A stretch of 64,000 bases of DNA from Gemmatimonadales bacterium (GCA_035517615.1 DATIYM010000007.1:166402-230401); one strand, 5' to 3'; counted from the first letter of the stretch, positions 6,661-64,000 are shown. Translations and numbers: made by a program. Notes: generated by a model from the letters alone, not told the origin.

Positions 6661-6691
6661 GGCCTATTATTGCGAACGATGCGGCCGCTGG

Positions 6692-7084: not shown

Positions 7085-7118
7085 CGGTAACCGCGAGACC
7101 TCAAGCGGAATTCAAGAC

Positions 7119-7460: not shown

Positions 7461-7521
7461 AGTGATCACAGGTTCACCTCGACGATTTTTCTTGTCGTTT
7501 CTTTCTTGACGCCTTTCGTTC

Positions 7522-48676: not shown

Positions 48677-49093
48677 CCATGTACTGCTGCAGTACCAGGG
48701 CCGCCGCCATCGCATCCACGTCGTGCTTGCGGTCTCGCGTGGTCTCCCCCATTTCGCGCACCGAGCGCAGCACCCGGGCAGTCGTAAAGCGTTCGTCCTG
48801 GAAATCTACAAAAACGCCGGACCGCGAGGTGATTTGGTTTCCGAGCAGTCGGACTTCCCGCGCGGCGTTCCCTTCCGAGCCGTCGGATTCGAGTGGCAAT
48901 CCGAGCACGACGCCGACGGCATGGTGTTCGTGAATGAGCGTGAGCAGCGTCTGCAATGGAAACCGCTTGCCCCGCCGGCGAGTGAGCGTGGTGTGCGGGG
49001 AAGCCAGAATCTGGTGTTCGTCGGACAGGGCGATGCCGATCCGGCGTTCGCCCCAGTCCACACTGATGAGCCGCCCAGCCTTGGGCGGCTCAC

Positions 49094-49097
<4 letters not shown>
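48663..49097 (-). CDS. ruvX: Holliday junction resolvase-like RNase RuvX (YqgF)
   Basis: [17 protein letters not shown] and VVLGLPL motifs. The GTG start overlaps the rho stop (GTGA). Confidence 0.9.
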
Positions 49098-50347
<1,250 letters not shown>

Positions 50348-50455
50348 TTGTGCGTTGGCTCCGTTGTACGCTACGGCGGGCGGACCCCGGGTGTGCGGGA
50401 ATGAGCGCGTCGAAAGTGATGAGAACTAGGGAATTAACAGACGTGCGAGCGATTT

Positions 50456-50484
50456 ATAGTAGAGCGCGCTTCTATTTCAGTCAA
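50456..50484 (-). promoter_or_regulatory. putative sigma70-type promoter of rho
   Basis: On the minus strand: TTGACT (50484-50479), exactly 17 nt, then TACTAT (50461-50456). This leaves a leader of about 100 nt before the rho ATG. Confidence 0.45.
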
Positions 50485-50492
50485 GAGCGCTC

Positions 50493-51602
50493 GTGAGCCT
50501 TACCAGGTTCCTGATGGCGTGGCGCACGACCGTCCTTCCCGACCGGGAAGTCGTTGATGCGCTTGTACATCCATCGTACACCCACAGCTCTCCCGAGCTG
50601 ACTCAGGCGCTCGCGGATTGGCCTGGCGTGCATTACTGGTCGCGTGAGGTCGACGGGACTCACCTGATCCTGACGCGTCATTTGGGTCGTCCACGCCGCG
50701 AGCGGTGGGTGCTTCACGGACTGCTGTTCCTCGCGACGCTGTTGACCACCACCTTCGCTGGCGCCGTCCTCGCCGGCGCCATTCCGCTCGAGAACATTCT
50801 CGACGCGCTGAGTGGCGCAACTCGCGTGCCTTCACTCGCGGCCGAGTGGGCGAGAGGACTGCCTTTCTCCGTCCCGCTGCTTGTCATTCTGCTGTGCCAC
50901 GAAATGGGTCACTACATCACGGCACGGCGCTACGAGCTGGACGTTTCACCTCCCTACTTTATCCCCGTCCCGTTATTCCCCTGGACTCCCGTGGGCACGC
51001 TCGGCGCCTTCATCCGGCTGCGTACGCTGATGAGCGACCGCCGTCAGCTGCTCGACGTGGGGGCCATGGGGCCACTTGCCGGCTTCCTCGTAGCCGTGCC
51101 GGTGCTGTGGTTGGGATTGTTGGGAAGCCATCCGCTCCCCGGTCACGGTCCGCTGGCAGGAATGCTGGTGTCGATCGGCGGGATGGATTGGGCCCTGGGT
51201 GACTCGCTCGTTACCCTGGTACTTCGTCATCTCGTGCATCCGGGAGCGCAGGCAGTGCTCATGTCGCCGCTGGCATTCGCGGGCTGGTTCGGCCTGTTCG
51301 TGACCATGCTCAACCTGCTTCCGATGGCGCAGCTCGATGGCGGACACATTCTGTATGCCGCTCTGCCACGCTGGCATCGGCGTATCGCGGTGGCGATTCT
51401 CATACTCATTCTCGCATTGGGATGGCTCTGGAGCGGCTGGCTGTTGTGGGGAACGCTGGTGCTGCTGCTGTCCCGTGGACGGCTTGGTCATCCGCCAGTG
51501 CTCGACAGCTACCGACCGCTGCCCCGGTCGCGGACCCTGCTCGCCCTGGGTTCTCTGCTCCTGTTCGTCATCACCTTTGCGCCGGTGCCGTTTCGCATCT
51601 AG
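50493..51602 (+). CDS. M50 family (site-2 protease-like) membrane metalloprotease
   Basis: HEMGHY zinc motif and NLLPMAQLDGGH motif in a polytopic membrane protein. GTG start at 50493; ATG at 50514 is an alternative. Confidence 0.88.
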   Translation: MSLTRFLMAWRTTVLPDREVVDALVHPSYTHSSPELTQALADWPGVHYWSREVDGTHLILTRHLGRPRRERWVLHGLLFLATLLTTTFAGAVLAGAIPLENILDALSGATRVPSLAAEWARGLPFSVPLLVILLCHEMGHYITARRYELDVSPPYFIPVPLFPWTPVGTLGAFIRLRTLMSDRRQLLDVGAMGPLAGFLVAVPVLWLGLLGSHPLPGHGPLAGMLVSIGGMDWALGDSLVTLVLRHLVHPGAQAVLMSPLAFAGWFGLFVTMLNLLPMAQLDGGHILYAALPRWHRRIAVAILILILALGWLWSGWLLWGTLVLLLSRGRLGHPPVLDSYRPLPRSRTLLALGSLLLFVITFAPVPFRI

Positions 51603-51707
51603 GGGGCGTTCCCCCTGACCTTGCATGATCCGCCTATTTGCCGATCCGCCAGTATTGCACTGGCCTTTCTCTGTTATATCTTTGCCCAAACCAGCCCAGG
51701 GCACCGC

Positions 51708-51992
51708 ATGCCCGCACAGCCGGCGCGCTACAGCAGTCCCGATTCACCGGACATCGTCGTTCACGATCTTCCCCCAATTCGATTTGACGGACAACTCATT
51801 GCCGTACGGCTGCTCGTGCGCCGCTCAGAGGAAGGCGTCTGGCGCGGTCGGATGATGTACGGCGCGCCGGACACCGAGGCGGAGCGATCGACCGCTGAGA
51901 TTTTCTGCGCCGGCACCGAGCAGGACCTCTGGCAGTCGGTACGCGACCTGCGGGATCATCATCTTCGCGACCTGTATCGCTCACTGCTGTAA
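51708..51992 (+). CDS. hypothetical protein (94 aa)
   Basis: An internal ATG of track ORF 51621..51992 gives MPAQPARYSSPDSP.... There is a 1-nt TAATG junction with the next gene. No recognisable motif. Confidence 0.5.
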   Translation: MPAQPARYSSPDSPDIVVHDLPPIRFDGQLIAVRLLVRRSEEGVWRGRMMYGAPDTEAERSTAEIFCAGTEQDLWQSVRDLRDHHLRDLYRSLL

Positions 51993-52201
51993 TGGCCGGT
52001 GATGCGCAGGAGGAGCAGCTGCGGGCCCGGCTCCGGAAGTTCCGCCACGACCTCTCGAATCCGCTGGCGGCCATTCTGGCGGAAACGCAGCTACTGCTGC
52101 TCTCGCCGGAGCAGTTCAATCGGGAGTCGCTCGACAGTTTGAAGCAAATCGAAACCCTAGCACGGAGGATGCGGCAGATCCTGGACGACGCTACGGCGTG
52201 A
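51992..52201 (+). CDS. stand-alone HisKA/DHp (dimerisation-histidine phosphotransfer) domain protein, 69 aa
   Basis: The H-box FRHDLSNPLAAILAETQLLL is followed by a second helix SLKQIETLARRMRQILDD. There is no sensor, HAMP or ATPase domain. Confidence 0.65.
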   Translation: MAGDAQEEQLRARLRKFRHDLSNPLAAILAETQLLLLSPEQFNRESLDSLKQIETLARRMRQILDDATA

Positions 52202-52293
52202 AGCGCCCGCACCCCCCTCGCGTCTCTCCCGTTTCCCGCTGGTGGGCGGGTCGCCTTCCCCGGCGACTCGGGTTCGTCCGGGTCCCCAGGTGG

Positions 52294-54114
52294 TTACGCT
52301 GGCCCCGCACGCTGCGGCGCTTCCCGATCTGAGCCGCCGTTTTTCAAGTAGAGGAAAAGGAAAAGGACACTCGCCGCGCTCGCCGCGAATTTGTAGGGAG
52401 CGGCCGCGTCGCTCGCCGACAGCAACCCCTCGATCAATCCGGCAAGCACGAGCAGAGTCACCGTCGCCCCGACCATGCGGATGGCGGCGTGCCCCTCGAT
52501 GACCAGTGCATCCGCCCGGCTCCAGTCTCCCGGTGCGATCAGCGCACGGGCAATCCGGAGCCCGGCGCCACCCGCGATGAAGATGGCGGTCAACTCGAGA
52601 ATGCCGTGGCCGGCCACGAACGTGAGCAGCCAGTTCGCCACGTGGTAGTTCGCGAACAGGCCGAGTACCGCGCCGAAGAACAGTCCATTCGTGATCAGCA
52701 GGGTGAGCGTGCCGATTCCCGCGGTGATACCGAAGGCGAAGGCGAAGAATGCGACCTGCACGTTGTTCGTGATGATGCGCGACGCGACCACGGGCAGATA
52801 GAGAGAAGGGGCCTCGGCGTAGCCGACGCCTTCTTGCTGAGCGTGCGGCCCCATCCGCGCCCGCTCCACCATTTCCCCCGGGAGAATCTCCTCGCCGAGC
52901 GTGGGGTTTTCGCGCAGCAGGAGATATCCGGTGACCGCGGGAAGAGCGAACGCGAGCAGCGCGACCAGCACGTAGGGCCGCGATTGGATCACGGCGGCCG
53001 GAAACGATCTGAAAACCAGGTTCCACACCCGCACCGGCGTGAGCCTCGGCACGCCATATAGCGCATTGTGCCCGGCGCTCACGAGCCGTTCGAGATATTC
53101 GAGTACCCGTGGATCGACGCCGTAGGTGCGAGCGCGTGCGAGGTCGGCGGCGACCTCGCGATACTGCGACGCGAATCCCGGCAGGGCTTGAGCGCCCAGC
53201 TGTTCGAGACCGGTACGCTCCGCCTGGGTCGCCACGACGCGAAACGACTCCCACCGATCCCGTTTTTGCGCGATGAATCGCTCCGCGGTCACGGTGCTGC
53301 GGCCGATCCCGTCGACCTGTCGTGTCGCCAGCCGGCCACGGCGCCGTGATAACTCGTTCTCGTGGACCCCGGCGAGATAGAGCAGTGGGTCGGTGTCACG
53401 GCGCGGCACGCGCGGCTCGAACCGCGCCGCCAGCTCCGAGGTGAATCGGTCTCTGAGTCGCGGATCGAGCTGGTCGGCGCGCTCGATGAATTCGTCGAGC
53501 AGGCGGAACTCGTCGTCGGAAAGCTCAGGCGGCCCGAGGTCCAGGGCCTGCTGGGGATCGCCGGGCGGCGGAGCCGCGCTCGCGAGCTGCAGCTCGTCCG
53601 GCCGATCGCGCACGACCACGGTGCCCGCCACGATGTCGCCCAGGCGGCGGTTTTCGCGGTGCAACAACACGAAGGCGAGTCCCACGATGTAGAAGAAAAC
53701 CGGCTGCGCATCGACGACGCGCACAAGGTTGCGGACCGCGGCCGCGGAAAACGTGAGGGGGTGACCAGTATCCATCACCACCCGAATTCCGAGCAGCTGC
53801 TTGCCAGGCGTGCGTCCCCGGTGCAATCCCTCGAACAGGAGGAAGTAGCCCCAGAACAGCGTAAACGCGGCGAGCGTGATGACCACCGTGACGAGGGTGC
53901 CCGAGAGCCGCGCGTCGGCCTGCGGCAGCACCGCGCCGACGCCCACGACCAGCGCGAAGGCGAGAAACGCGAGGATCGCGGCGTCGCACAACGCGGCAAG
54001 GATTCTCGAGCCCAGCCCCGCGAGCTCGAGCTCGAGGACGACATGCTCGGGAGTCTCGATGTCCAGGCGCCTCGCAAACGAGGCGCCGGCCGGTACTCGC
54101 GTGGCAGGCGTCAC
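52294..54114 (-). CDS. RDD domain + SpoIIM/DUF95-like membrane protein fusion
   Basis: N-terminal RDD-type region RILAALCDAAILAFL...GRTPGKQLLGIRVV...RRLGDIVAGTVVV, a cytoplasmic linker, then a SpoIIM-like region NNVQVAFFAFAFGITAGIGT...GHGILELTAIFIAGGAG. Confidence 0.8.
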   Translation of the reverse strand: MTPATRVPAGASFARRLDIETPEHVVLELELAGLGSRILAALCDAAILAFLAFALVVGVGAVLPQADARLSGTLVTVVITLAAFTLFWGYFLLFEGLHRGRTPGKQLLGIRVVMDTGHPLTFSAAAVRNLVRVVDAQPVFFYIVGLAFVLLHRENRRLGDIVAGTVVVRDRPDELQLASAAPPPGDPQQALDLGPPELSDDEFRLLDEFIERADQLDPRLRDRFTSELAARFEPRVPRRDTDPLLYLAGVHENELSRRRGRLATRQVDGIGRSTVTAERFIAQKRDRWESFRVVATQAERTGLEQLGAQALPGFASQYREVAADLARARTYGVDPRVLEYLERLVSAGHNALYGVPRLTPVRVWNLVFRSFPAAVIQSRPYVLVALLAFALPAVTGYLLLRENPTLGEEILPGEMVERARMGPHAQQEGVGYAEAPSLYLPVVASRIITNNVQVAFFAFAFGITAGIGTLTLLITNGLFFGAVLGLFANYHVANWLLTFVAGHGILELTAIFIAGGAGLRIARALIAPGDWSRADALVIEGHAAIRMVGATVTLLVLAGLIEGLLSASDAAAPYKFAASAASVLFLFLYLKNGGSDREAPQRAGPA

Positions 54115-54143
54115 CCCGCCATGTTAATCACGGCAAAGGACTC

Positions 54144-54908
54144 GTGGCCAGCATTCCGCTTCGTCCCATGTCGACGGGAGAGATCCTCGATGCGTCGTTC
54201 GCTCTGCTGCGGCGCCACGCCGGGGTGTTTTTCGGCGTCGCCATCGTGTGCCAGGGTCCACCGACGGCCCTGCAGCTGTTCGTGCAATTCGGCGGCGGCG
54301 TGGGGGCCCACTTTGGGTTGTTCGTCTTCGCCCGCCTCCTGAACGGCCTGGGCTACCTGTTGATTACCGCCGCCTGCATTCGCGTGGTGTCGCAGGCGTA
54401 TCTGGGTCAGGAGCCGGGCATGGGGGAGGCGCTCGCGTTCGCCTGGCAGCGGGTGTGGCGAACGCTCAGCGCGGCGCTCTCGGCCGTTTTCCTCGCGACG
54501 CTGGCCGCATTCCTGCTCGTCGTACCCGGAATCATCGTCGCGTGCGGTTTTGCCGTGGCGGTGCAGGCGGCTGTCCTGGAATCCCTTCACTCGGGGAGCG
54601 ACGGGCTCGGGCGCTCCTGGGTGCTCACTCGCGGATACAAGTGGAAGGCGTTCGGGCTGTACGTGGTGGTGGGGATCATCGCCACCATTGTGCTGTTTGG
54701 ATTGAGTGTCGTCGGCGCAATCGCGACGGCGCTCTTCCCCCCGCTGCTCGTGCCCGTCGTCGTCAGCTTCGCGCTCGTCTTTCTGTTCGCCTATCCGTTC
54801 GTCAGCTGTGTCTTCACGCTGTTCTATTACGATCTGCGCGTGCGCCGAGAGGCGTTCGATCTCGAGCTGCTTGGACGGCATCTGGGTGTGGCCGTCGCGC
54901 CGGTGTGA
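54144..54908 (+). CDS. polytopic membrane protein (GDPD-membrane-domain-like), unknown function
   Basis: STGEILDASFALLRRH N-terminus and 5-6 TM helices, ending FYYDLRVRREAFDLE. This pattern is typical of membrane proteins found beside DUF4129/MoxR clusters. Confidence 0.7.
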   Translation: MASIPLRPMSTGEILDASFALLRRHAGVFFGVAIVCQGPPTALQLFVQFGGGVGAHFGLFVFARLLNGLGYLLITAACIRVVSQAYLGQEPGMGEALAFAWQRVWRTLSAALSAVFLATLAAFLLVVPGIIVACGFAVAVQAAVLESLHSGSDGLGRSWVLTRGYKWKAFGLYVVVGIIATIVLFGLSVVGAIATALFPPLLVPVVVSFALVFLFAYPFVSCVFTLFYYDLRVRREAFDLELLGRHLGVAVAPV

Positions 54909-55522
54909 CGGTCGCGCTTCAGCGCATCGATCCAGACAGCATTCGAGCGGCCCTGCGGACGGTGTTCGCGGGGCGCGAGTATCGCTGGCGGGGAACGAGC
55001 AGCGCGTGGCTGTGGGTGACGGACCACCTGTTGCGCGCGCTCGAGTGGCTCAGAGAGCTCCGGATTTCCTCGCCGTTCCGCTACTACCTGCTCGTGGCGT
55101 CGCTCACCATCATCCTCGGAGCGCTGCTGGTGCAGCTCGCCACCGTGGTTCGTCGCTCGGTTCGTTCGCGAGCGCCGGGGCCCACCGCGCCCCGAGACGT
55201 TCCCGCGCGTGACGCGCGCTGGCATCTCGCGGAGGCCGCGCGGGTTCTCGCGGCCGGCCAAATCGGCGAAGCGTTGGCGCACCGGTTCATCGCGATGCTC
55301 CTCGAGCTCGATGAGCGCGGCTTGATCACCTTCGACATCGCGAAGACGCCGGCCGAGTACGTCGCCGGGGCAAAGCTCGATCCGCGTACCCGTGCCGAGC
55401 TCGAGCAACTCGTCGACAGTCTCTACAGGCATCTGTTCGGCGCGGCCCCCGCCGACCTGACCACCTGGCAATCCTTCGACCGGAGGGCGGCGACGCTCGT
55501 GACCGATGCTCAAGCGGGGTGA
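54905..55522 (+). CDS. DUF4129 domain protein
   Basis: The GTG at 54905 makes GTGA with the upstream stop. One TM (YYLLVASLTIILGALLV), then ARWHLAEAARVLAAGQIGEALAHRFIAMLLELDERGLI...KTPAEY...LYRHLFG, the DUF4129 pattern. Confidence 0.7.
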   Translation: MTVALQRIDPDSIRAALRTVFAGREYRWRGTSSAWLWVTDHLLRALEWLRELRISSPFRYYLLVASLTIILGALLVQLATVVRRSVRSRAPGPTAPRDVPARDARWHLAEAARVLAAGQIGEALAHRFIAMLLELDERGLITFDIAKTPAEYVAGAKLDPRTRAELEQLVDSLYRHLFGAAPADLTTWQSFDRRAATLVTDAQAG

Positions 55523-56732
55523 ACGGGCGCTGGTCGGCGCTGCGGTGGGGGCGATTGCGGTTGCCGCGATTCTTGGCACCGTGCTCGCGCCCGCATCGAG
55601 CCTCACCGACCGGCGTCTGTCGACCTATCTCGCGGGTCCGTATGGCGCCAAAGGGCTGGGTCAGACATTGGCGCATCTCGGTGCGGAGGTCGTCCGCTGG
55701 CGCAAGCCATACTACATGCTTCCCGACAGCGCGCACCCGGACACCACGCGGTTGTTGGCATTTCTCGACGTTTCACTGCCGCGGACAGGACTCGAGACGG
55801 CAACGATCCGGGGCTACGTGGCCAACGGGGGACGCGTGTTCATCGCAGGCGTCGAGGGCATTGACGCATGCTTCGGATTCAAGACGCGGTTTGTCCGAGA
55901 CAACGCGTCGGGCGCCCTCAGGAATCCTGATGTTCGCCACCTGTACGCGGCGCGCCGCGTGCTCGAGCCCGTCAGTCCTGAGTCCCTCGCGCGGGCGCAT
56001 CCCGTCAGGCCCGGAGGCGAGCGTGCGTGCGTACCGCGTCCGGCCACGCGGGTGGATACGCTTCTCGTGACCAATGCGGGTGAGCTCGTCGCGGTACGCA
56101 TCAGGTGGCCCGGATCGGGCACGGCGACCCTCCTTGCCGACGAGCATTTCCTCACAAACCGCAGTCTCAAGGAAACGGATGCCGGAATCGTCGTGATTCC
56201 CTGGATTCTCTCGGGCGGCATTCGTAAAGTGGTGTTTGACGAATATCATCTCGGGTTTGGGAGCGGCGGATCGCTCGTCTCGGTATCGTGGGACTGGCTG
56301 CTCGACCATCCGCTGGGCTGGGCCATTCTGCAGGGTGTCGGCGTCGCTATCCTTGCGCTGGCCGTTCAGGCCGTGCGCTTCGGTCCAGTGCGGTGGCGGC
56401 GCGAACGCCGGCGCCGCTCCGCGCTCGAGCACGTAGACGCACTCGCGGCGGGGCTCGAACGATCCCACGGTGAAGATGTCGCGATTCAGATGATGATTTC
56501 AGGCCTGCGCCGGCGTTTGTCACCAGCCGGCCGCTCGAACACGGACAGCGCGCGCGAATGGATCGAGCGCCTCGAGGATGCGATGGTGAAGCCCGAGGGC
56601 CGCGCGGCCGCGCACCGTCTCCTGACGGCAATGATGGCTCCGGACATTCCGGACCGCCTGCTCATGGTCGCAACATCCGTGGAGGAAGTATGGGAGGAGC
56701 TTCGACCGCCCACGACGCGCAAGCCGTTCTGA
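55506..56732 (+). CDS. DUF4350-like protein
   Basis: N-terminal TM, then a periplasmic domain (GAKGLGQTLAHLG...GGRVFIAG), a second TM region and a cytoplasmic tail. The position between DUF4129 and MoxR matches the conserved cluster order. Confidence 0.6.
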   Translation: MLKRGERALVGAAVGAIAVAAILGTVLAPASSLTDRRLSTYLAGPYGAKGLGQTLAHLGAEVVRWRKPYYMLPDSAHPDTTRLLAFLDVSLPRTGLETATIRGYVANGGRVFIAGVEGIDACFGFKTRFVRDNASGALRNPDVRHLYAARRVLEPVSPESLARAHPVRPGGERACVPRPATRVDTLLVTNAGELVAVRIRWPGSGTATLLADEHFLTNRSLKETDAGIVVIPWILSGGIRKVVFDEYHLGFGSGGSLVSVSWDWLLDHPLGWAILQGVGVAILALAVQAVRFGPVRWRRERRRRSALEHVDALAAGLERSHGEDVAIQMMISGLRRRLSPAGRSNTDSAREWIERLEDAMVKPEGRAAAHRLLTAMMAPDIPDRLLMVATSVEEVWEELRPPTTRKPF

Positions 56733-57646
56733 CCGCTCTCGACCGGGTCGTGCTCGGTCAGGGCCGCGCCACGGGCGAGGCGCTCATCTGTCTGCTCGCG
56801 CGAGGCCACGTCCTGCTCGAGGGCGTCCCCGGCACGGCGAAGACGCTGCTCGTGCGGACGCTGTCGCTCGCGCTCGATGTCCGGTTTCAGCGCATTCAGT
56901 TCACGCCGGACTTGATGCCCGCCGACATTACCGGCGTCTCGCTGCTCTCGGGAACCCACGAATTCACGTTTCGCCCGGGACCCCTGTTCGCGGATCTCGT
57001 GCTGGCCGACGAGATCAACCGGGCGCCCGCAAAAACGCAGGCGGCGCTGCTCGAGGCGATGCAGGAACGTACAGTAACGGTCGACGGTGTGGCGCATCCG
57101 CTCTCGCGCACCTTTACCGTGTTCGCGACCGAGAATCCGGTCGAATTCGAAGGCACCTATCCACTCCCGGAAGCCGAGCTCGACCGATTCATGATGAAGG
57201 TGATGATCGACTATCCGTCGGCCGAGCTCGAGCAGGCGCTGCTCACGCGCTACAGCGAGGGATTCGAGGCCGACCGTCCGGACACCTACGGCGTCACTCC
57301 GCTCGCCGATGCCGCGGCGCTCGAACAGCTGCGGCGCGCGGCGGACGGGGTGCGGGTCGAGCCCCGGATCATCGAATACATCACCGCGATCGTCCGGGCC
57401 ACACGCACCGCCCCGGCCTTCACGCTGGGCGCGAGTCCGCGCGCGAGCGTGGCGTTGTTCAAGGCCGTGCGCGCCGCCGCGCTGCTCGAAAATCGGGACT
57501 ACGTCATTCCTGACGATGTGAAGCGGCTCGCTCCGGCTGTCCTGCGCCATCGCGTCGCCGTGGCTCCCGAGCTCGAGCTCGAAGGGACGACCCCGGATCT
57601 CGCGCTGCGCGCGCTGCTCGAGCACACTAAGGTCCCGACAGCCTGA
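56690..57646 (+). CDS. MoxR family AAA+ ATPase
   Basis: HVLLEGVPGTAKT (Walker A), LADEINRAPAKTQAALLEAMQE (Walker B/sensor), and FATENP. An internal ATG at 56690 overlaps the upstream gene by 43 nt. Confidence 0.9.
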   Translation: MGGASTAHDAQAVLTALDRVVLGQGRATGEALICLLARGHVLLEGVPGTAKTLLVRTLSLALDVRFQRIQFTPDLMPADITGVSLLSGTHEFTFRPGPLFADLVLADEINRAPAKTQAALLEAMQERTVTVDGVAHPLSRTFTVFATENPVEFEGTYPLPEAELDRFMMKVMIDYPSAELEQALLTRYSEGFEADRPDTYGVTPLADAAALEQLRRAADGVRVEPRIIEYITAIVRATRTAPAFTLGASPRASVALFKAVRAAALLENRDYVIPDDVKRLAPAVLRHRVAVAPELELEGTTPDLALRALLEHTKVPTA

Positions 57647-57648
57647 CG

Positions 57649-58980
57649 ATGCCGTACGTGTTTCCGCTGCCCACGCGAGCGGCGCTCGCCGTGGCCGCGG
57701 CATTCGCCGTCGTCGCGCTCGGCGGCATCTGGTTTGCCTCGGCCCTGAATCTGCTCCTCTTCTTCGATATCCTCCTGCTCCTCGGGGTCTGGTTCGATGC
57801 GCTCCGCGCGCCCCAGCCCGCACCGTATGCAATCACCGTCGAACGCGAATCCGCTCCGACGTTCACCGTGGGCCACGAGAGCGTGGTGACCTACCGCTGG
57901 GCGAACCAGGCACACCGCACGGCCCGGCTGCGTGTGCGGGAGGTGCGTCCCGACATTCTGGGCGGCGTCTTGCCTCCGCGCATCCTCGAGATCCCAGCTG
58001 GCGCCGAGCTGGTCGAGACCTCGCGCGTCGTACCGGTCTCGAGAGGCCGAGCCCACGGCGGGGCGTTCGTGGTCGAGAGCGTGGGGCCGTGGAGGCTCGG
58101 CCGGAGCCGGTCCCAGGTGCCGCTTCCCTGGGAGGCCACGGTGTATCCCGCGTCACCTCTGCGCGCGCGGCACGGCGCCGTTTCCGGCGTGCAACGGCGC
58201 CGCGAGCCCGGATCCGCGGCCGCGCGCAGACTGGGCGAAGGGCGCCTGTTCGAATCGCTGCGCGACTTCGTTGCGGGAGATGATCCGCGGCACATCGACT
58301 GGAAAGCCACCGCCCGGCGCCGCAAAGTCATCGCGCGCCAGTTCCAGGCGGAGCGGCGCCAGCATGTTCTCCTCGTACTCGATTGCGGCCGGCTCTTGAG
58401 CGCCGAGCTCGCGGGGCGCGCCGCGCTCGAGTACGCGGTGCAGGGAGCCGTCGAGCTGGCCCACGCGGCCATTCGGCAGGACGACGACGTCGGCGTGATG
58501 GCCTTCTCGGACGGCGTGCATCACTATGTCCCGCCACAGCGCGGCCGGCGCGCGCTGCGCGAGATCATGGATGTCCTCGCTCGCGTCGAGCCGCACCTCG
58601 TCGAGTCGGACTACCCGGGAGCCTTTCGCTACCTCGCCGTGCGCAATCGCAAGCGGGCGCTGACCGTGGTATTCACGGACGTCATCGACCGATTTGCGTC
58701 CGATGCCCTCGTTGCCAACGTCGCGAGTCTCAGACCACGGCATTTGCCCCTTGCCGTGACGCTCAGAAACCCCGATCTGGACCGGGCCGCGTTCCACCTC
58801 CCGCGCGACCGGCACGACGCTTTTCAGATTGCCGCGGCGCTCGAGCTGCTCCGCGCTCGCGGCGAGGCGCTCCTCCACATGCGTCGGGCCGGGGTCATGG
58901 TGTTGGACGTTCCCCCGGCCCGCGCCGCGCAAGCTGCGGCCGCACAATATCTTGAGTTGAAGCGTCGCGGCAGGCTCTAG
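57649..58980 (+). CDS. DUF58 (vWA-like) protein, MoxR partner
   Basis: Two N-terminal TM helices, then GDDPRHIDWKATARR (DUF58 hallmark) and a vWA-like VLLVLDCG...FSD...VVFTD pattern. Confidence 0.88.
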   Translation: MPYVFPLPTRAALAVAAAFAVVALGGIWFASALNLLLFFDILLLLGVWFDALRAPQPAPYAITVERESAPTFTVGHESVVTYRWANQAHRTARLRVREVRPDILGGVLPPRILEIPAGAELVETSRVVPVSRGRAHGGAFVVESVGPWRLGRSRSQVPLPWEATVYPASPLRARHGAVSGVQRRREPGSAAARRLGEGRLFESLRDFVAGDDPRHIDWKATARRRKVIARQFQAERRQHVLLVLDCGRLLSAELAGRAALEYAVQGAVELAHAAIRQDDDVGVMAFSDGVHHYVPPQRGRRALREIMDVLARVEPHLVESDYPGAFRYLAVRNRKRALTVVFTDVIDRFASDALVANVASLRPRHLPLAVTLRNPDLDRAAFHLPRDRHDAFQIAAALELLRARGEALLHMRRAGVMVLDVPPARAAQAAAAQYLELKRRGRL

Positions 58981-59046
58981 AGCGGTGCTGTTGGACCGGG
59001 AAACCCCGTCCTTTAGATTGGGGCCCGCTTTTCCCCGGGAAAATGG

Positions 59047-60663
59047 ATGGCACCGAAGGGTGTCGCGGCCGCCGCGGTCTGTCTCGTCGTCTCTCTCGCA
59101 GCCTGCGTGTATCCGGCCGAGCGGGATGCGGACGTGCATGTCACGCTCACCCCCCTCCACATCCTGCTGCGCGGCGGCGATACCGTGGCGACGGCTCGGG
59201 CATGGCAGATGATGGGCACGAACGACTCGGCGCCGATCTCAAACGTCGTGTTCACGTGGACGTCGAGTGATCCCGGAATCGCGACCGTAGATGCAAGTGG
59301 CCGCGTCGTGGGCGTCAATTCCGGTGTCGTCGTCATCACTGCCGCGGCGGCCAATTACGATCGGGAGTCGCGCGCCGCAAGCGAAACGCTGCGTGTCTCC
59401 GCGCCGCTCGAAATCGACAGTATCCGACCGAAAACGGTGCAGTACGGCCAAATGGTTGCGATCTACGGCGTGGGAGTGGATTCCATTTTTTCCGCGACGC
59501 TGAGCGGCGCCCCGCTCATCCCGGTGCCCTATTCGGACACGGTGTATGCCGGCGGTACCGCGCGATCGAGATGGTGGGTCCCGCCGCCGGCACGCACTGA
59601 CTCATTGTTTTTCCTCGGCATCTCGGGAGGGAACGGCATCTTCGGGTACGTGCACGGCGACACCACGAACGTCCTCGAGCGCGATCTCTACGAGCCGAAT
59701 GACACGAATTTCCAGCTGCTCGACCTCGACGCCCCGCCACCGTTTCCTCAATACCCGGCCCTCGTGTTCTACAACCCGGCCCTCGCATTCGAAGTCCTAG
59801 GGCGGACCCAGAAGTCGGGAGCCGACTGGTATCGTCTGAAGCAGGCCGAGCAGCGCGATGTCACAGTCATCCTGTCGGCGCCCGATATCGCGGGCACGTT
59901 CGTCACCTACCTCACCGATTCACTGGGGTGGAGCAGCGCCGGGCAGAAGTTCGTGATCGGGCATGACTCCTGGACGTTCGGTCCCGGTATTCACGCCTGC
60001 CACGGACTGCCGTTCACACCGAGCGAAGCGATTGCCGACTCGACGGTCGTCGCGTTCAAGGCGCTTCGGGCGGGGACGCTCGACGCGCTCGCAGTCTACG
60101 CGAAAGCGGGGCGCTACGGCCTCGGCATCATCGCGGGGTACCAGAGCGAGCTCCCGGCCGATGCGCATGAAGACGACAATTCCTGCAATGCCGCGGACCT
60201 GCGCGGCGTTGCCGCTACGCCTTTCCGCGATACCCTGACGATCGAGAACCCGCACGACATGGACTGGATCCGGTTCCACTATACGAATCCGGGCCTGGGA
60301 TACACGGCGCAAATCCGCATGCACGCGTTCACCGGAATCCATCCCGACTCTCTCAAGGACCTGGATCTGTATGTGTTCGCGGTTCCCAACCCCGGCGATG
60401 TCGCGCTGCAGCTGCAGGCGGCCGATACGTCAGCGGGATCGGACGTAAATCTGCGACCCAATCTCGCCACAGGCGACTATTACCTGGCCGTCGTGGATTA
60501 CGCGGGGACCGCGACGACGTATGAGGTGTGCGTCGCGCCGGTGAACACGCTACTCGGCAACGGATCGTGCGCCGCGACGGGATTCCCCGCGCCTCCCGAG
60601 CGTGCGGCAATCAAGTCCGCAGTACGGCGCGCCGCCGCGCCGCGACTGCCACTCGCCCGATGA
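59047..60663 (+). CDS. lipoprotein with Big_2-like, IPT-like and two PPC (pre-peptidase C-terminal)-like modules
   Basis: Lipobox SLAAC. FTWTSSDPGIATVDASGRVVGVNSGVVVITA (Big_2). YEPNDT...ADWYRL and EDDNSCNAADL...DMDWIRF...GDYYLAVVDY (PPC-like). Confidence 0.75.
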   Translation: MAPKGVAAAAVCLVVSLAACVYPAERDADVHVTLTPLHILLRGGDTVATARAWQMMGTNDSAPISNVVFTWTSSDPGIATVDASGRVVGVNSGVVVITAAAANYDRESRAASETLRVSAPLEIDSIRPKTVQYGQMVAIYGVGVDSIFSATLSGAPLIPVPYSDTVYAGGTARSRWWVPPPARTDSLFFLGISGGNGIFGYVHGDTTNVLERDLYEPNDTNFQLLDLDAPPPFPQYPALVFYNPALAFEVLGRTQKSGADWYRLKQAEQRDVTVILSAPDIAGTFVTYLTDSLGWSSAGQKFVIGHDSWTFGPGIHACHGLPFTPSEAIADSTVVAFKALRAGTLDALAVYAKAGRYGLGIIAGYQSELPADAHEDDNSCNAADLRGVAATPFRDTLTIENPHDMDWIRFHYTNPGLGYTAQIRMHAFTGIHPDSLKDLDLYVFAVPNPGDVALQLQAADTSAGSDVNLRPNLATGDYYLAVVDYAGTATTYEVCVAPVNTLLGNGSCAATGFPAPPERAAIKSAVRRAAAPRLPLAR

Positions 60664-62225
60664 CGAGCAGCACGATGGAATGCATTCAGTGCCATACGCC
60701 GGTGCCGGCCAACAGCCGGTACTGCTCCGCGTGCGGAGCCGATCAGACGGGCGGTGGGGCAGCGCCGAATACCACGAATGCCGCCGCGCTCGAAGTGAGG
60801 TTGCAAGCCATCGTGCAGGGGAAGTACAAGATCGCGCGCATACTGGGGAAGGGCGGGATGGGCACCGTGTATCTCGCGCACGATATCACCCTCGAACGCG
60901 AAGTCGCGATCAAGGTCCTCCCACCTGATATCGGGCAGGATGAGCAAATTATCCGGCGCTTTCAGCAGGAGGCCAAGACGGCCGCGAAGCTCGACCATCC
61001 CAACATCATCCCGATCTATCGCGTCGAGAGCGAAGGTGGACTCAACTACTTCGTGATGAAGTACGTCTCGGGCACATCGCTTGAAGACGTGCTCGAAACG
61101 CGAGAACCGCTGGCGCTCGACTACATCCAGCGCGTGCTCTGGGAAGCCGGCTGTGCCCTGGGCCACGCGCATCAGCGCGGCGTGGTGCACCGGGATGTGA
61201 AGCCGGCCAACATCATGTTCGATCATGACGGTCGCGTGATGTTGGCCGACTTTGGAATCTCCAAAGCCTTGCAGGCCGCCACGGGATTCACCGCGACCGG
61301 AATGATCATCGGTACGCCGCACTACATGGCCCCGGAGCAGGCGAAGGGAACGCCGGTCGATGGGCGGGCCGACCAGTACTCGCTGGGCGTGGTTGGCTAC
61401 CGGATGATCACGGGTGAGCTGCCGTTCAGCGGCGACTCGATTCACACGATCCTCTACAAACAGATCTTCGAGCCCGTCCCGACCCCGAAGGCGCTGCGCG
61501 CCGAAATCCCGGGATTCCTTTCCGCCGCGATCACCCGGGCCATGTCCAAGGACCCGGAGCTGCGGTTTCCGACGATGGAGGCGTTCGCGACGGCGGTCTG
61601 GCCCGAGCAGCCGGTGTCGGCCGTGGCGACCACCACACCACAGCGCCCCATTCGCGGCCCCGGCACCCGCGCGGCGGCGGATGCGCCGACCCAGGTTTCG
61701 GTGCCGCCCGCCTATGCGGCGACCACGCCGCTGCCGGCCGCGCGTCAGCCGATCGCTCCCCCACCCAGACGCCGCTCGCATGCTGGTGTGATTGGTGTCG
61801 CGCTCGCTGCCGTTCTCGCGATCGGCGGCTACCTCGTGTTCGGACGTGGCGCAGAGCCTCAGGCTGCCACGCCAACGGTTCCCACGCATGTGGACACCGT
61901 GCGTTTGGCGGACACGGTCCGTGTTCCCGCCTCACCCTCCACCTCCCCGCCTCCCGCAGCACAACATCCGCGAGTGCGTGTGGCGCCGGTCGTGACGGCT
62001 CCCACCGACGCGCAGGGATATCTCACGGTCAATGCCGACCCCTACGGCGAGCTGTACGTGGATGGCATCGACGTGGGGCCCACCCCCGTGGTGCGGTACG
62101 CGGTACCGCGAGGTGGCCACACGATTCGCATCGTCCGCGAGGGATATCGGAGTATTACGGACCACGTACAGGTCGAGGCGGGAAACACCGTTCCCAAGCG
62201 GTATACGCTCATTCCCGAGGGATGA
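60660..62225 (+). CDS. Ser/Thr protein kinase with N-terminal zinc ribbon, TM helix and C-terminal PEGA domain
   Basis: The ATG at 60660 makes ATGA with the upstream stop. CIQCHTPVPANSRYCSACG. Kinase motifs GKGGMGTVY, VAIKVL, HRDVKPANI, DFG and APE. TM VIGVALAAVLAIGGYLVF. PEGA-like YLTVNADPYGELYVDG...GGHTIRIVREGY. Confidence 0.9.
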   Translation: MTSSTMECIQCHTPVPANSRYCSACGADQTGGGAAPNTTNAAALEVRLQAIVQGKYKIARILGKGGMGTVYLAHDITLEREVAIKVLPPDIGQDEQIIRRFQQEAKTAAKLDHPNIIPIYRVESEGGLNYFVMKYVSGTSLEDVLETREPLALDYIQRVLWEAGCALGHAHQRGVVHRDVKPANIMFDHDGRVMLADFGISKALQAATGFTATGMIIGTPHYMAPEQAKGTPVDGRADQYSLGVVGYRMITGELPFSGDSIHTILYKQIFEPVPTPKALRAEIPGFLSAAITRAMSKDPELRFPTMEAFATAVWPEQPVSAVATTTPQRPIRGPGTRAAADAPTQVSVPPAYAATTPLPAARQPIAPPPRRRSHAGVIGVALAAVLAIGGYLVFGRGAEPQAATPTVPTHVDTVRLADTVRVPASPSTSPPPAAQHPRVRVAPVVTAPTDAQGYLTVNADPYGELYVDGIDVGPTPVVRYAVPRGGHTIRIVREGYRSITDHVQVEAGNTVPKRYTLIPEG

Positions 62226-63274
62226 GAGCCATGCGATCAGTGCTCGGCCGGAGTCTGCTGCTCATGCTGGTGTGTTGGGGGCCTCTCGCCCCTCGACCAG
62301 GGGCCGCACAGACGCGAACCATGTTGCGTCAGGCGCAAGACGCGTACGATGCACTCGATTTCTCCCGCGCCGCGGTGCTCGCGCGGCGCGCGTTGACGGA
62401 ACGTTTGAGCGCCGCCGACCAGACACGGGCATATGAGCTGCTCGGCTTCTCGTACAGCGCGATCGATTCCCAGATCAAGGCGGTCGACGCGTTCAAGCAG
62501 ACGATTCTCCTCGATCCCGACCATCAGCTCGACGCGAACAAGGTCTCGCCCAAGATCACGAGCCTGTTCTATTCGGCGCTCGGGCAGGTACTCGTGGTCA
62601 GGCAACTGCGGGTCGACAGCGCAAAGTTCGTCAGCGGGCAGGGAGCCGTTCCGATCCGGTTCACGGTGACCAGCCCGGCGCGCATCCGCGTGCGCGCGGT
62701 CAACGCGAATACGTCGCTGGCCGTGGACTCAGCGGTGGGAACCGGTCAGTACACCGTCCGCTGGCCGGCGCAGCTTCCGAGCGGCGGCCCCGTGGGCGCC
62801 GGAACGTGGCTCCTCATTGTGGACGCGACCGCGGCGCAGACCACTTTCTCCGCCTCGCAGGCGGTGAACGTGAGCTATGGGGCCGTCGACACGTTGCCGC
62901 ATCTGACGAGCCTGCCCGGATACCAGGAGCTCCCGGAGATCGAGTATCCGCCGCAGAGCTGGCGACCGCTCGGTCTCTCGTTCCTCCTGGCGAGCGGCGC
63001 GGCGGTTGGGGCGTACGCGCTCAATAACGGCTCGCTCGGCTCGCCGCCAACGCGTGAGCTTGCCGTCGCGGCGAGCGCGGCGTTGATCACCGGGCTCATC
63101 ATGACCTTGCGGAAACCGGCGCCGCGCCCGGCCGAAGCCAACATCCGGTACAACCGATTGCTGCACGAACAGCTCTCCGGTCGTAACGCGGAGATCGCGA
63201 CCGAGAACGCGCGCCGCCGCCAGCAGGTGATGCTCGCGATCGTTCCGCAACGGCGGGAGACGGCCACCCGGTGA
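62222..63274 (+). CDS. secreted/membrane protein with TPR-like and FlgD-Ig-like regions and two C-terminal TM helices
   Basis: Signal peptide, TPR-like segment QAQDAYDALDFSRAAVLARRAL...AYELLGFSY, an Ig-like beta segment, and TM helices. ATGA overlap with the kinase gene. Confidence 0.65.
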   Translation: MRAMRSVLGRSLLLMLVCWGPLAPRPGAAQTRTMLRQAQDAYDALDFSRAAVLARRALTERLSAADQTRAYELLGFSYSAIDSQIKAVDAFKQTILLDPDHQLDANKVSPKITSLFYSALGQVLVVRQLRVDSAKFVSGQGAVPIRFTVTSPARIRVRAVNANTSLAVDSAVGTGQYTVRWPAQLPSGGPVGAGTWLLIVDATAAQTTFSASQAVNVSYGAVDTLPHLTSLPGYQELPEIEYPPQSWRPLGLSFLLASGAAVGAYALNNGSLGSPPTRELAVAASAALITGLIMTLRKPAPRPAEANIRYNRLLHEQLSGRNAEIATENARRRQQVMLAIVPQRRETATR

Positions 63275-63912
63275 GGCACGCCTCGGTTCTGGTTCTCCTC
63301 GCCGTATCCTGGGCCGCGCCGGCGGGCGCCCAGCACGCGAGCATCGGCCCCGCATTCGTATTCGCGGATTACCGGGAGGTCTCGCCCGATCTGCGATATG
63401 AAGGGGTCGGGCCCGGCGTCATCGCGCACTTCAGTTTCCACAGTGTCAGCCTCGAAGGGGGAGCGGCGTGGCTCGCGATGAGTCCGCACGGCGGGCTCGC
63501 AACGTCGGGGTTCCAGGCCGTGCAGCTCGATGGATGGCTCCGGTGGAAGGCAACCGATTACCTGTCGCTCGAAGCGGGTCTTACACATCAAGCGCCGGAC
63601 GATGAATTCGCGGCGCAGTCATTCGGCGCCGTCCGGATCGGGGCCCTGACGCAACACGCCCTCGGGCACGGCGCCACGATTGCGTTGCGGGGAGACTATC
63701 TCGGTGGCGCGCACTTCTCCGGAGGCGGAGAGGCGCCCCTCGCGATCGAGCTCGGGCTCATGGTGAACTGGGCGTTTTCGAGTCATGTGACGGCGCTCGT
63801 CGATTACGCCTTTCAGCGGCTCGACCGGACGACGCATCCGGGAGGCGGTCCCGAAACCGATGCGCCGCTCGAACAGTCGCGGGGGCGCATGGGGCTGGTC
63901 ATCGGGTTTTAG
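63271..63912 (+). CDS. small outer-membrane beta-barrel protein
   Basis: Signal peptide VLVLLAVSWAAPAGAQ, amphipathic beta strands, and C-terminal GLVIGF (terminal Phe). The GTG start makes GTGA with the upstream stop. Confidence 0.7.
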   Translation: MRHASVLVLLAVSWAAPAGAQHASIGPAFVFADYREVSPDLRYEGVGPGVIAHFSFHSVSLEGGAAWLAMSPHGGLATSGFQAVQLDGWLRWKATDYLSLEAGLTHQAPDDEFAAQSFGAVRIGALTQHALGHGATIALRGDYLGGAHFSGGGEAPLAIELGLMVNWAFSSHVTALVDYAFQRLDRTTHPGGGPETDAPLEQSRGRMGLVIGF

Positions 63913-64000
63913 CGTCTTAGGTTTTGGTCCTGAGCATTCGCGTGCCGGGGACCGAGCCTTTGTTGCCACTATGACGCTCCGTAGGACGATTTTCGTCGGA

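What the first reader, a model, noticed from the sequence alone, without database searches (positions are those of the whole stretch)
50493..63912. 13-gene envelope signalling/remodelling neighbourhood flanking the MoxR module
From the rho promoter onward, every gene is envelope-associated or signalling-related:
- M50 site-2 protease (HEMGH, LDG)
- a 94-aa unknown protein
- a 69-aa DHp-only protein
- the MoxR module
- a translationally coupled four-gene operon: Big_2/PPC lipoprotein, Zn-ribbon Ser/Thr kinase with PEGA, TPR/FlgD-Ig membrane protein and an OM beta-barrel, with ATGA/ATGA/GTGA junctions at 60660, 62222 and 63271

Regulated intramembrane proteolysis, His-phosphotransfer, Ser/Thr phosphorylation and an AAA+/vWA machine are packed into 13.4 kb without any housekeeping gene. 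This is unlikely to be random and may represent one stress-response system spanning both membranes.
Basis: inference. Interest (0 to 1): 0.6.

Follow-up and report, generated by a model that had tools for sequence, protein, structure and literature searches.

The report
Four separate envelope modules, juxtaposed
The 13 genes are real and mostly envelope-related, but they are four independently inherited units that sit side by side in one branch of a Gemmatimonadales family, not one stress-response machine.

Summary
All 13 genes, their domains and the ATGA/ATGA/GTGA junctions are there. Structure prediction confirms the TPR/Ig membrane protein and the 10-stranded outer-membrane barrel.

Comparison with about 230 Gemmatimonadota genomes splits the block into four separable units:
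- **M:** the M50 protease.
- **U:** u94-DHp69. M and U belong to a housekeeping backbone, aroH/thiE-yceG-rho|M50-u94-DHp69, kept in every genome that has this M50.
- **R:** RDD-SpoIIM | membrane protein-DUF4129-DUF4350-MoxR-DUF58. This is the known, uncharacterised mycobacterial Rv3689-Rv3695 type of cluster.
- **T:** lipoprotein-Ser/Thr kinase-TPR/Ig-barrel, a four-gene operon almost confined to this family.

The full order M-U-R-T occurs only in one subclade. There it was broken at least seven times: R missing or elsewhere three times, T moved or lost three times, and R-T moved away once. In the sister clade M, R and T are all unlinked. Outside the family, M50 and R are never neighbours.

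T has its own promoter-like element. The density of envelope genes is ordinary: 16% of 10-gene windows in this genome are as rich.

A single 13-gene system is therefore not supported. A link between R and T, as in the bifidobacterial PFNA cluster, remains possible but untested.

The parts
47624..50347 (-). Context: yceG (47624-48715) and rho (49094-50347). These are the housekeeping backbone to which M50 and u94-DHp69 are attached.
   Evidence: Pfam YceG 2.5e-75 and Rho domains. yceG-rho lies next to M50 in 35 of 35 genomes. aroH/thiE are also syntenic.
50455..50484 (.). Divergent rho / M50 promoter region. TTGACT-N17-TACTAT lies on the minus strand. The overlapping TATAGT (50455-50460) on the plus strand ends 32 nt before the M50 GTG.
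   Evidence: Promoter scan and sequence. The plus-strand -10 is an inference.
50493..51602 (+). Unit M: M50 site-2 metalloprotease, 369 aa, without a PDZ or CBS domain.
   Evidence: Peptidase_M50 7.7e-23. HEMGH at 136 and LDG at 287. RseP models score far below cut-off. The gene is absent from at least 10 family genomes that keep u94-DHp69.
51708..51992 (+). Unit U, gene 1: conserved 94-aa cytoplasmic protein of unknown fold. A -10-like TATCTT lies at 51677.
   Evidence: ORF. Orthologues in relatives, including genomes without M50. No family hit.
51992..52201 (+). Unit U, gene 2: free-standing DHp (HisKA) protein, 69 aa. TAATG overlap with u94.
   Evidence: HisKA 5.3e-7, over cut-off. The H-box His is invariant in 30 genomes.
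52294..54114 (-). Unit R: RDD-SpoIIM fusion membrane protein, divergent from the MoxR operon across a 29-nt gap.
   Evidence: RDD 1.8e-22 and SpoIIM 7.1e-29. It always accompanies the MoxR operon.
54144..58980 (+). Unit R: five-gene operon with overlapping or abutting junctions. Genes are mem254 (54144-54908), DUF4129 (54905-55522), DUF4350 (55506-56732), MoxR AAA+ (56690-57646) and DUF58/vWA (57649-58980).
   Evidence: Pfam. Junctions. Intact in all 80+ loci examined. Counterpart of Rv3689-Rv3695.
58991..59019 (+). Promoter-like element of unit T: TTGGAC-N17-TAGATT. The -10 lies 33 nt before the Big2 ATG.
   Evidence: TAGATT is the most enriched hexamer (22.8x) upstream of genes in this genome. 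Similar -10-like boxes precede Big2 in relatives, whether linked or unlinked. No terminator or significant fold in the gap.
59047..60663 (+). Unit T, gene 1: lipoprotein (lipobox LAAC) with a Big_2 domain and a weak PPC-like region.
   Evidence: Big_2 5.6e-6. PPC E = 0.078. Orthologues 26-91% identical.
60660..62225 (+). Unit T, gene 2: Hanks-type Ser/Thr kinase with an N-terminal Zn ribbon, a TM segment and a periplasmic PEGA domain.
   Evidence: Pkinase 1.1e-49 and PEGA 1.3e-10. VAIK, HRD, DFG and APE are all present.
62222..63274 (+). Unit T, gene 3: signal peptide, TPR-like repeat, Ig-like (FlgD-type) sandwich, two TM helices and a long C-terminal helix.
   Evidence: AF2 pLDDT 81. Foldseek matches. 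979+ homologues; every organism name among the listed hits is Gemmatimonadetes/Gemmatimonadales. Paralogues always lie next to a kinase paralogue.
63271..63912 (+). Unit T, gene 4: 10-stranded outer-membrane beta-barrel, 213 aa, with a C-terminal Phe.
   Evidence: AF2 pLDDT 86, pTM 0.77. OpcA, OmpT and OmpG matches.

Best explanation
The block is a juxtaposition of four separately inherited and separately usable units. It is not one machine.

**M and U.** The M50 intramembrane protease (M) and the u94-DHp69 pair (U) belong to a family-wide backbone, aroH/thiE-yceG-rho|M50-u94-DHp69. M50 presumably cleaves an unidentified membrane-anchored regulator. u94-DHp69 is a small cytoplasmic pair with its own likely promoter. 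It probably acts by His-phosphotransfer or by docking on a histidine kinase.

**R.** This is the widespread MoxR-DUF58 membrane module of the mycobacterial Rv3689-Rv3695 type. In it the AAA+ ATPase is thought to remodel the vWA/DUF58 protein and its membrane partners (DUF4350, DUF4129, RDD, SpoIIM).

**T.** This is an operon almost confined to this family, in which an outer-membrane barrel, a surface or periplasmic lipoprotein and an inner-membrane TPR/Ig adaptor most likely feed a signal to the PEGA domain of a Hanks kinase, which then phosphorylates cytoplasmic targets.

**History.** R came to lie beside the rho backbone in the ancestor of the family. T was added behind R in the ancestor of one subclade. 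Since then the order has been inherited passively and broken often.

**Basis.** The gene identities, the unit boundaries and the evolutionary history are shown by the data. The biochemical roles are inferred from family knowledge.
For: **Linkage across genomes**
- yceG-rho|M50-(u94)-DHp69 is kept in 35 of 35 genomes that carry this M50. aroH/thiE upstream are kept as well.
- M50 is missing from at least 10 family genomes that keep rho|u94-DHp69|R.
- R is intact in every locus. It lies by rho in most of the family. It lies elsewhere in G008, G014, G015, G047, G052, G057, G064, G117, G118 and G141.
- Outside the family R has another internal order (RDD-SpoIIM after DUF58). It is never near M50: 0 of 16 genomes that have both.
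- T is intact everywhere but sits in at least three contexts:
  - behind DUF58, in the own subclade;
  - directly behind DHp69 or M50, with R absent or elsewhere (G003, G042, G052);
  - alone (G004, G014, G019, G047, G057, G064, G040, G103, G169, G182).

**Tree**
- A tree of yceG+rho+M50 places the full order only in one clade (SH-aLRT 99), with at least 7 disruptions among its sampled members.
- The sister clade has M, R and T all apart. A third clade has M-R without T.

**Soft boundaries**
- In one genus, 1.9-9.6 kb of other genes are inserted between DHp69 and R.
- The two histidine kinases that follow the barrel in this genome are absent from relatives.

**Independent transcription of T**
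- T has its own -10-like TAGATT, the most enriched upstream hexamer in the genome.

**Internal coherence of T**
- The kinase-TPR pair recurs as adjacent paralogous pairs.

**Prior knowledge of R**
- R is co-regulated as a unit in Mycobacterium chelonae (PMC8191103).
- DUF4350+MoxR+vWA is predicted to be a secretion or membrane-remodelling complex, and SpoIIM homologues are noted to neighbour vWA and AAA+ genes (PMC5898192).

**Gene density**
- Envelope-gene density is not unusual.
Against: - Within the own subclade, R and T are adjacent, co-oriented and only about 40-150 nt apart in roughly 20 of 22 genomes across at least 6 genera. No terminator is visible in the gap. Co-transcription or functional wiring in this lineage therefore cannot be excluded.
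- A precedent exists for a Ser/Thr kinase clustered with MoxR-DUF58 and phosphorylating MoxR (PFNA, PMC8430577).
- The adjacency of R to rho-DHp69 is old (family-wide). That could reflect function rather than inertia.
- Most genomes are fragmented MAGs, so some 'unlinked' calls rest on contig assignments. Several, however, come from single-contig or few-contig genomes (G057, G042, G169, G182).
Confidence: 0.75

Rival explanations
1. R and T are functionally wired in this subclade. The PEGA kinase, informed by the barrel, lipoprotein and TPR proteins, phosphorylates MoxR or the cytoplasmic face of DUF58 and so gates the AAA+/vWA module. This would be analogous to the PFNA cluster of Bifidobacterium.
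For: - R-T adjacency with a short co-oriented gap is kept in about 20 of 22 subclade genomes.
- No terminator is found in the 66-nt gap.
- In PFNA, Pkb2 phosphorylates the MoxR ATPase.
- Two relocated R modules have another kinase gene as immediate neighbour (G047, G052).
Against: - The adjacency arose once.
- T works without R (G003, G019, G042, G169, G182), and R works without T in most of the phylum.
- Where both exist in the sister clade they are unlinked (G014, G047, G057, G064, G118).
- Kinase genes are not enriched near R: 6 in 744 kb of flanks of 58 loci, against 5.7 expected.
- T carries its own promoter-like box.
Confidence: 0.15
2. All 13 genes form one integrated envelope stress system. 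Regulated proteolysis by M50, His-phosphotransfer, Ser/Thr phosphorylation and the AAA+/vWA module would act in one pathway.
For: - The whole order is conserved in at least 6 genera.
- All products but three are membrane or secreted proteins.
Against: - Each unit occurs without the others.
- There are at least 7 break-ups in the one clade that has the order.
- The units are fully scattered in the sister clade.
- Housekeeping flanks are at least as syntenic.
- There are three strand switches and several promoter-like sites.
- Envelope-gene density is ordinary.
Confidence: 0.04
3. The backbone units (M50 and/or u94-DHp69) are functionally tied to R. For example, M50 processes a membrane component of R, or DHp69 relays its state. 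This would explain why R has stayed beside rho-DHp69 through most of the family.
For: - The convergent DHp69/RDD-SpoIIM pair is found in three separate clades of the family, including genomes without M50.
Against: - When R moves, u94-DHp69 stays with rho (G008, G014, G015, G047, G057, G064).
- M50 and u94-DHp69 occur without R in at least 9 genomes.
- Outside the family M50 and R are never linked.
- Several kb of other genes are inserted between them in one genus.
Confidence: 0.06

Closest known systems
Mycobacterial Rv3689-Rv3695 cluster (membrane protein, DUF4350, MoxR2, DUF58, SpoIIM, RDD). The archaeal DUF4350 + MoxR + vWA neighbourhood predicted to be a secretion or membrane-remodelling complex (Makarova et al. 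2015, PMC5898192) is related.
   Same: It has the same domain set as unit R (DUF4350, MoxR AAA_3, DUF58/vWA, SpoIIM, RDD, extra membrane protein). It is co-regulated as a block in M. chelonae (PMC8191103).
   Different: - Here RDD and SpoIIM are fused in one 606-aa protein, and a DUF4129 protein is present.
- The function is unknown in both.
- The vWA MIDAS position reads DxGRxxT.
PFNA cluster of Bifidobacterium (pkb2-fn3-aaa-atp[MoxR]-duf58-tgm; PMC8430577)
   Same: A membrane Ser/Thr kinase with a variable outer region lies next to MoxR and DUF58, together with an Ig/FN3-type surface protein. The kinase phosphorylates MoxR.
   Different: - PFNA is a single operon with the kinase first.
- It has no outer-membrane barrel, TPR adaptor, DUF4350, RDD or SpoIIM, and it has a transglutaminase.
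- Here the kinase operon is separable from the MoxR module and has its own promoter-like site.
TagQRST-PpkA threonine-phosphorylation pathway of the Pseudomonas aeruginosa H1-T6SS (from my own knowledge, and suggested in earlier notes)
   Same: The logic is similar: an outer-membrane lipoprotein and periplasmic partners activate a bitopic Hanks kinase. The TPR region gives a sub-threshold hit to the TssQ lipoprotein family (1.1e-5).
   Different: - No T6SS, FHA or PP2C phosphatase gene is found in or beside the block.
- The components are not homologous (PEGA rather than a vWA ectodomain; there is a barrel protein).
RseP / SpoIVFB site-2 proteases (regulated intramembrane proteolysis)
   Same: The M50 catalytic core is present, with HExxH and LDG motifs in TM helices.
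   Different: - There is no PDZ or CBS domain.
- RseP equivalog models score 18.6 bits against cut-offs of 147-477.
- No anti-sigma or sigma gene is adjacent.
- The constant neighbour is rho.

Membership tests
Single operon / one functional gene system (13 genes) | The genes co-occur: they are present or absent together across genomes. | tested here: not met
   Among 81 relatives, M50 is in 38, R in 38 and T in 23, and every combination is seen. u94-DHp69 occurs without M50.
Single operon / one functional gene system (13 genes) | Adjacency is kept beyond the depth at which neighbouring unrelated genes stay syntenic. | tested here: not met
   The full order is found only in one subclade, with at least 7 break-ups. 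aroH/thiE-yceG-rho stay linked to M50 more widely than R or T do.
Single operon / one functional gene system (13 genes) | Co-transcription or shared regulation. | not testable with these tools
The sequence shows three strand switches and promoter-like boxes before M50, u94 and Big2.
Peptidase M50 (site-2 protease) | HExxH and NxxPxxxLDG motifs in a polytopic membrane core, and a Pfam score over cut-off. | tested here: met
   81.4 bits against a cut-off of 27.2. HEMGH at 136 and LLPMAQLDGGH at 281.
RseP-type RIP protease | PDZ domain(s), and an equivalog score. | tested here: not met
   No PDZ domain. TIGR00054 scores 18.6 bits against a cut-off of 147.6.
Histidine kinase | A DHp domain with the phospho-accepting His, plus a HATPase_c catalytic domain. 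| tested here: not met
   HisKA scores 30.0 bits and the His is invariant. The protein is only 69 aa and has no HATPase_c. It is a free DHp, not a kinase.
MoxR-DUF58 module of the Rv3689-Rv3695 type | An AAA_3 MoxR ATPase next to a DUF58/vWA gene, with DUF4350, SpoIIM and RDD membrane proteins. | tested here: met
   AAA_3 1.4e-59, DUF58 1.6e-30, DUF4350 6.4e-12, SpoIIM 7.1e-29 and RDD 1.8e-22. The mycobacterial counterpart is listed.
PFNA cluster | One operon in the order pkb2-fn3-MoxR-duf58-tgm. | tested here: not met
   The kinase lies downstream in a separable operon. There is no FN3 or transglutaminase hit. T and R are unlinked in many genomes.
MoxR-vWA-beta-propeller ternary (conflict) systems / anti-phage defence | A bpMoxR-type ATPase with vWA and beta-propeller partners, or specific PADLOC system hits. 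| tested here: not met
   bpMoxR scores 39 bits against 200 bits for AAA_3. There is no propeller. PADLOC gives only generic kinase-domain hits (PD-T4-6) and nothing for the other proteins.
Hanks-type Ser/Thr kinase (active) | VAIK Lys, HRD, DFG and APE motifs. | tested here: met
   All four are present, at residues 82, 177, 197 and 224. Pkinase scores 169.6 bits.
Outer-membrane beta-barrel protein | A signal peptide, an even number of antiparallel amphipathic strands closing a barrel, and a C-terminal aromatic residue. | tested here: met
   The AF2 model has 10 strands and pLDDT 86. There are 127 Foldseek matches with E <= 0.001; all 50 listed are OM barrel proteins or barrel domains, with OpcA best. 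The protein ends in ...VIGF.
TagQRST-PpkA pathway | Linkage to a T6SS, an FHA substrate and a PP2C phosphatase. | tested here: not met
   None of the 13 products, nor the three checked downstream genes, carries such domains.

The most novel reading that the evidence does not exclude
The four-gene T operon is an undescribed trans-envelope receptor-kinase complex. In it an outer-membrane barrel, a surface lipoprotein, a TPR/Ig inner-membrane adaptor and a PEGA Hanks kinase act together. In this subclade its output is the neighbouring MoxR-DUF58 module, so a Ser/Thr phosphorylation signal from the outer membrane switches an AAA+/vWA membrane-remodelling machine.
Probability: 0.12. Interest if true: 0.6.

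Novelty: new member of a known kind. Interest (0 to 1): 0.25.

Why it matters
The result shows that a striking run of envelope and signalling genes in a Gemmatimonadales genome is inherited gene order, not a super-operon. It also gives correct unit boundaries for annotation.

Three points of modest value remain:
- The lipoprotein-kinase-TPR/Ig-barrel operon is a coherent module, almost confined to this family, with hundreds of metagenomic homologues and no described function.
- The free DHp protein with its 94-aa partner is a strictly conserved small signalling pair attached to rho.
- The MoxR/DUF58/DUF4350/RDD-SpoIIM module behaves as a discrete cassette that can be lost or moved cleanly. This could help in working out its still unknown role, including in mycobacteria.

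Tried and rejected
- **Kinase-TPR 'Rosetta stone' fusions.** Long open frames suggested fusions. On inspection they are adjacent genes in different frames, not fusions. They still show a recurrent gene pair.
- **Kinase enrichment next to relocated MoxR modules.** G047 and G052 looked suggestive. Over 58 loci the count equals expectation, 6 against 5.7.
- **Repeats or attachment-like sites at the edges of the R cassette.** Alignment of the empty sites (G003, G042) with the two G000 junctions showed only a shared sequence after DHp69 and no flanking repeat.
- **A terminator between DUF58 and Big2.** None was found, and the fold is no better than shuffles.
- **Defence-system reading.** PADLOC gives only generic kinase hits.
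- **G144 (another family).** R and T lie on one contig about 8.5 kb apart with unrelated genes between them, so this is not an independent juxtaposition.
- **Sequence similarity of the paralogous cassette's 215-aa third gene to the barrel.** None was found.
- **First gene caller.** The first crude version was too strict and was replaced.


Full report
**Observation**

The window lies in a 3.1-Mb Gemmatimonadales MAG (contig C7). ORF listing and Pfam/NCBIfam scans confirm the gene list:
- rho at 49094-50347, minus strand, which borders the finding on its left.
- M50 protease at 50493-51602.
- A 94-aa ORF at 51708-51992. The start is one base earlier than I first took it to be.
- A 69-aa HisKA-only protein at 51992-52201.
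- An RDD-SpoIIM fusion on the minus strand at 52294-54114.
- A five-gene plus-strand operon at 54144-58980: membrane protein, DUF4129, DUF4350, MoxR, DUF58.
- A four-gene plus-strand operon at 59047-63912.

The quoted junctions ATGA/ATGA/GTGA at 60660, 62222 and 63271 are exact.

Two products had no family hit, so I modelled them.
- The 350-aa protein folds (pLDDT 81) into a signal peptide, a TPR-like helical repeat, an Ig sandwich, two TM helices and a long helix. Foldseek matches TPR domains, FlgD/hook-cap and Fn3/Ig domains. A few of its 979+ homologues carry PF13860, FlgD_ig.
- The 213-aa protein folds (pLDDT 86, pTM 0.77) into a 10-stranded barrel. The best matches are OpcA, OmpT and OmpG.

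The kinase has all catalytic motifs, and M50 has HEMGH and LDG. The PPC call is sub-threshold.

**Is the clustering more than chance?**

I called genes crudely over the whole genome (2,434 genes). I flagged proteins with a TM-like or signal-like hydrophobic segment. By this measure 47% of genes qualify. 16% of all 10-gene windows are as rich as this block (at least 7 of 10), against 12% after shuffling. The 13 genes also fall into only four or five transcription units, so the number of independent draws is small. The argument that the run is 'unlikely to be random' fails.

I located M50, RDD-SpoIIM, the TPR/Ig protein and the lipoprotein in 81 relatives. I located DUF4350, M50 and the TPR/Ig family in an even sample of 151 genomes of the phylum. 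I fetched about 130 loci and mapped all 15 proteins on them by tblastn. Four units emerge.

1. **M and U backbone.** yceG-rho|M50-(u94)-DHp69 is present in all 35 genomes with this M50 for which a locus was fetched. aroH/thiE upstream are kept too, even in a genome of another family.
2. **M50 is separable from U.** At least 10 family genomes have rho|u94-DHp69 with no room for M50.
3. **R is always intact.**
   - Inside the family it mostly sits convergent to DHp69.
   - It is elsewhere in G008, G014, G015, G047, G052, G057, G064, G117, G118 and G141.
   - Outside the family RDD-SpoIIM lies after DUF58, and the module is never near M50 (0 of 16 genomes that have both).
4. **T is always intact.** It occurs:
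   - behind DUF58 in the own subclade;
   - directly behind DHp69 or M50 where R is missing or elsewhere (G003, G042, G052);
   - at unrelated places (G004, G014, G019, G047, G057, G064, G040, G103, G169, G182).

A maximum-likelihood tree of yceG+rho+M50 places the full order in one clade only (support 99). Within that clade it was disrupted at least seven times:
- R is missing or relocated in G003, G042 and G052.
- T is moved or lost in G004, G009 and G059.
- R-T moved away from M in G015.

The sister clade has all three units unlinked, including the single-contig genome G057. A third clade has M-R without T.

In one genus, 1.9-9.6 kb of other genes are inserted between DHp69 and R. The two histidine kinases that follow the barrel beyond the window end are not found in relatives. 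A highly conserved sigma-70 gene further on follows the barrel in G111 and G042, and follows M50 in the outgroup G033. R and T therefore look like inserts in a housekeeping backbone.

**Transcription units**

The block has three strand switches. TAGATT is the most enriched hexamer (22.8-fold) in the 60 nt upstream of genes in this genome. One copy lies 33 nt before the lipoprotein ATG, preceded by TTGGAC at a 17-nt spacing. Similar boxes (TAGATT, TAAGTT, TATTGT) precede the lipoprotein gene in relatives, whether T is linked to R or not. A TATCTT lies 31 nt before u94, and a TATAGT lies 32-38 nt before the M50 start. No terminator or stable fold lies in the 66-nt DUF58/lipoprotein gap, so read-through cannot be excluded.

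**What the units are**

- **R** matches the mycobacterial Rv3689-Rv3695 cluster, which is co-regulated in M. chelonae. It also matches the DUF4350 + MoxR + vWA neighbourhood predicted to be a secretion or membrane-remodelling complex. The same paper notes SpoIIM homologues next to vWA and AAA+ genes.
- **T** is almost confined to this family: in the phylum sample its orthologues are 27 genomes of the family plus one of another. Its kinase-TPR/Ig core recurs as adjacent paralogous pairs in relatives. One of these has a coupled third gene of barrel-like size, and others have a lipoprotein in front. This argues that the four T proteins work together. The likely flow is barrel and lipoprotein to TPR/Ig adaptor to PEGA ectodomain to kinase.
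- **DHp69** keeps an invariant H-box in 30 genomes.

**The surviving link**

The only part of the 'one system' idea that remains open is a link between R and T. The adjacency is well kept inside the subclade. The bifidobacterial PFNA cluster is a precedent in which a kinase phosphorylates MoxR. Against this:
- The juxtaposition arose once.
- Each unit works alone elsewhere.
- Kinase genes are not enriched beside R modules in general: 6 in 744 kb of flanks, against 5.7 expected.

I give this link about 15%.

**Verdict**

The block is made of new members of known kinds, and its interest is low to moderate.

Earlier notes of this scan describe the same T operon in other genomes in other contexts. 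They agree with this reading, but I treated them only as leads.

Noticed in passing
window 59014-59019, 51677-51682, 63918-63923; whole genome G000: TAGATT is the most over-represented hexamer (22.8x) in the 60 nt upstream of genes in this genome. TAGGTT, TAGCTT and TATATT follow. It sits about 30-35 nt before start codons, so it looks like the local -10 consensus (TAGnTT) with short leaders.
   Followed up: partly
window 57649-58980 (DUF58, residues 245-251): The vWA domain of DUF58 has DCGRLLS where a MIDAS DxSxS would be expected. DxGRxx[TS] is conserved in all MoxR modules of the phylum that were examined, so metal-ion-dependent adhesion chemistry may be absent.
   Followed up: partly
window 52294-54114: The RDD-SpoIIM fusion is phylum-wide in Gemmatimonadota (34-68% identity over nearly the full length). 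In mycobacteria the two are separate genes (Rv3695, Rv3694c). A PADLOC kinase model (PD-T4-6, PDLC04051) matches the RDD part, so kinase-RDD fusions exist elsewhere.
   Followed up: partly
window 51708-52201; loci L090, L116, L121, L128: The u94-DHp69 pair stays next to rho in family genomes that have lost M50. The H-box LRHDLSNPL is invariant in 30 genomes. This is a strictly conserved free DHp protein with a 94-aa partner of unknown fold.
   Followed up: partly
G000 contig C7 beyond the window end (window-equivalent 63971-70995): The barrel gene is followed by a CHASE3-PAS histidine kinase, a hybrid GAF-PAS kinase-receiver and a sigma-70 gene that is 96-98% identical in relatives. The two kinases are absent from relatives. 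The sigma-70 gene is the conserved right flank.
   Followed up: partly
locus L056 (G052) 6286-8674; G000 C11:78625-79686: The genome has a second, divergent rho-like gene (46% identity). In G052 the relocated MoxR module lies directly beside such a rho paralogue. The move may therefore have involved recombination between rho copies.
   Followed up: no
loci L002 386-1132, L068 3654-4406, L034 7825-9341: Some relatives carry a second copy of the 254-aa membrane protein, either between M50/DHp69 and RDD-SpoIIM or in tandem. The G000 copy is closer to that extra copy (46%) than to the canonical one (34%).
   Followed up: no
loci L061 2319-5978, L062 66-8210: Relatives carry paralogous cassettes of the kinase operon. 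One is (small protein)-kinase-TPR/Ig-215-aa secreted protein with overlapping junctions. Another is a tandem pair of kinase-TPR/Ig genes preceded by a 768-aa lipoprotein.
   Followed up: partly
locus L033 (G054) 1-2075 and L051 5-2750: In G054 the kinase gene appears to follow DUF58 after about 250 nt, with no lipoprotein gene between them. The lipoprotein may therefore be dispensable, or may lie at a contig break.
   Followed up: no
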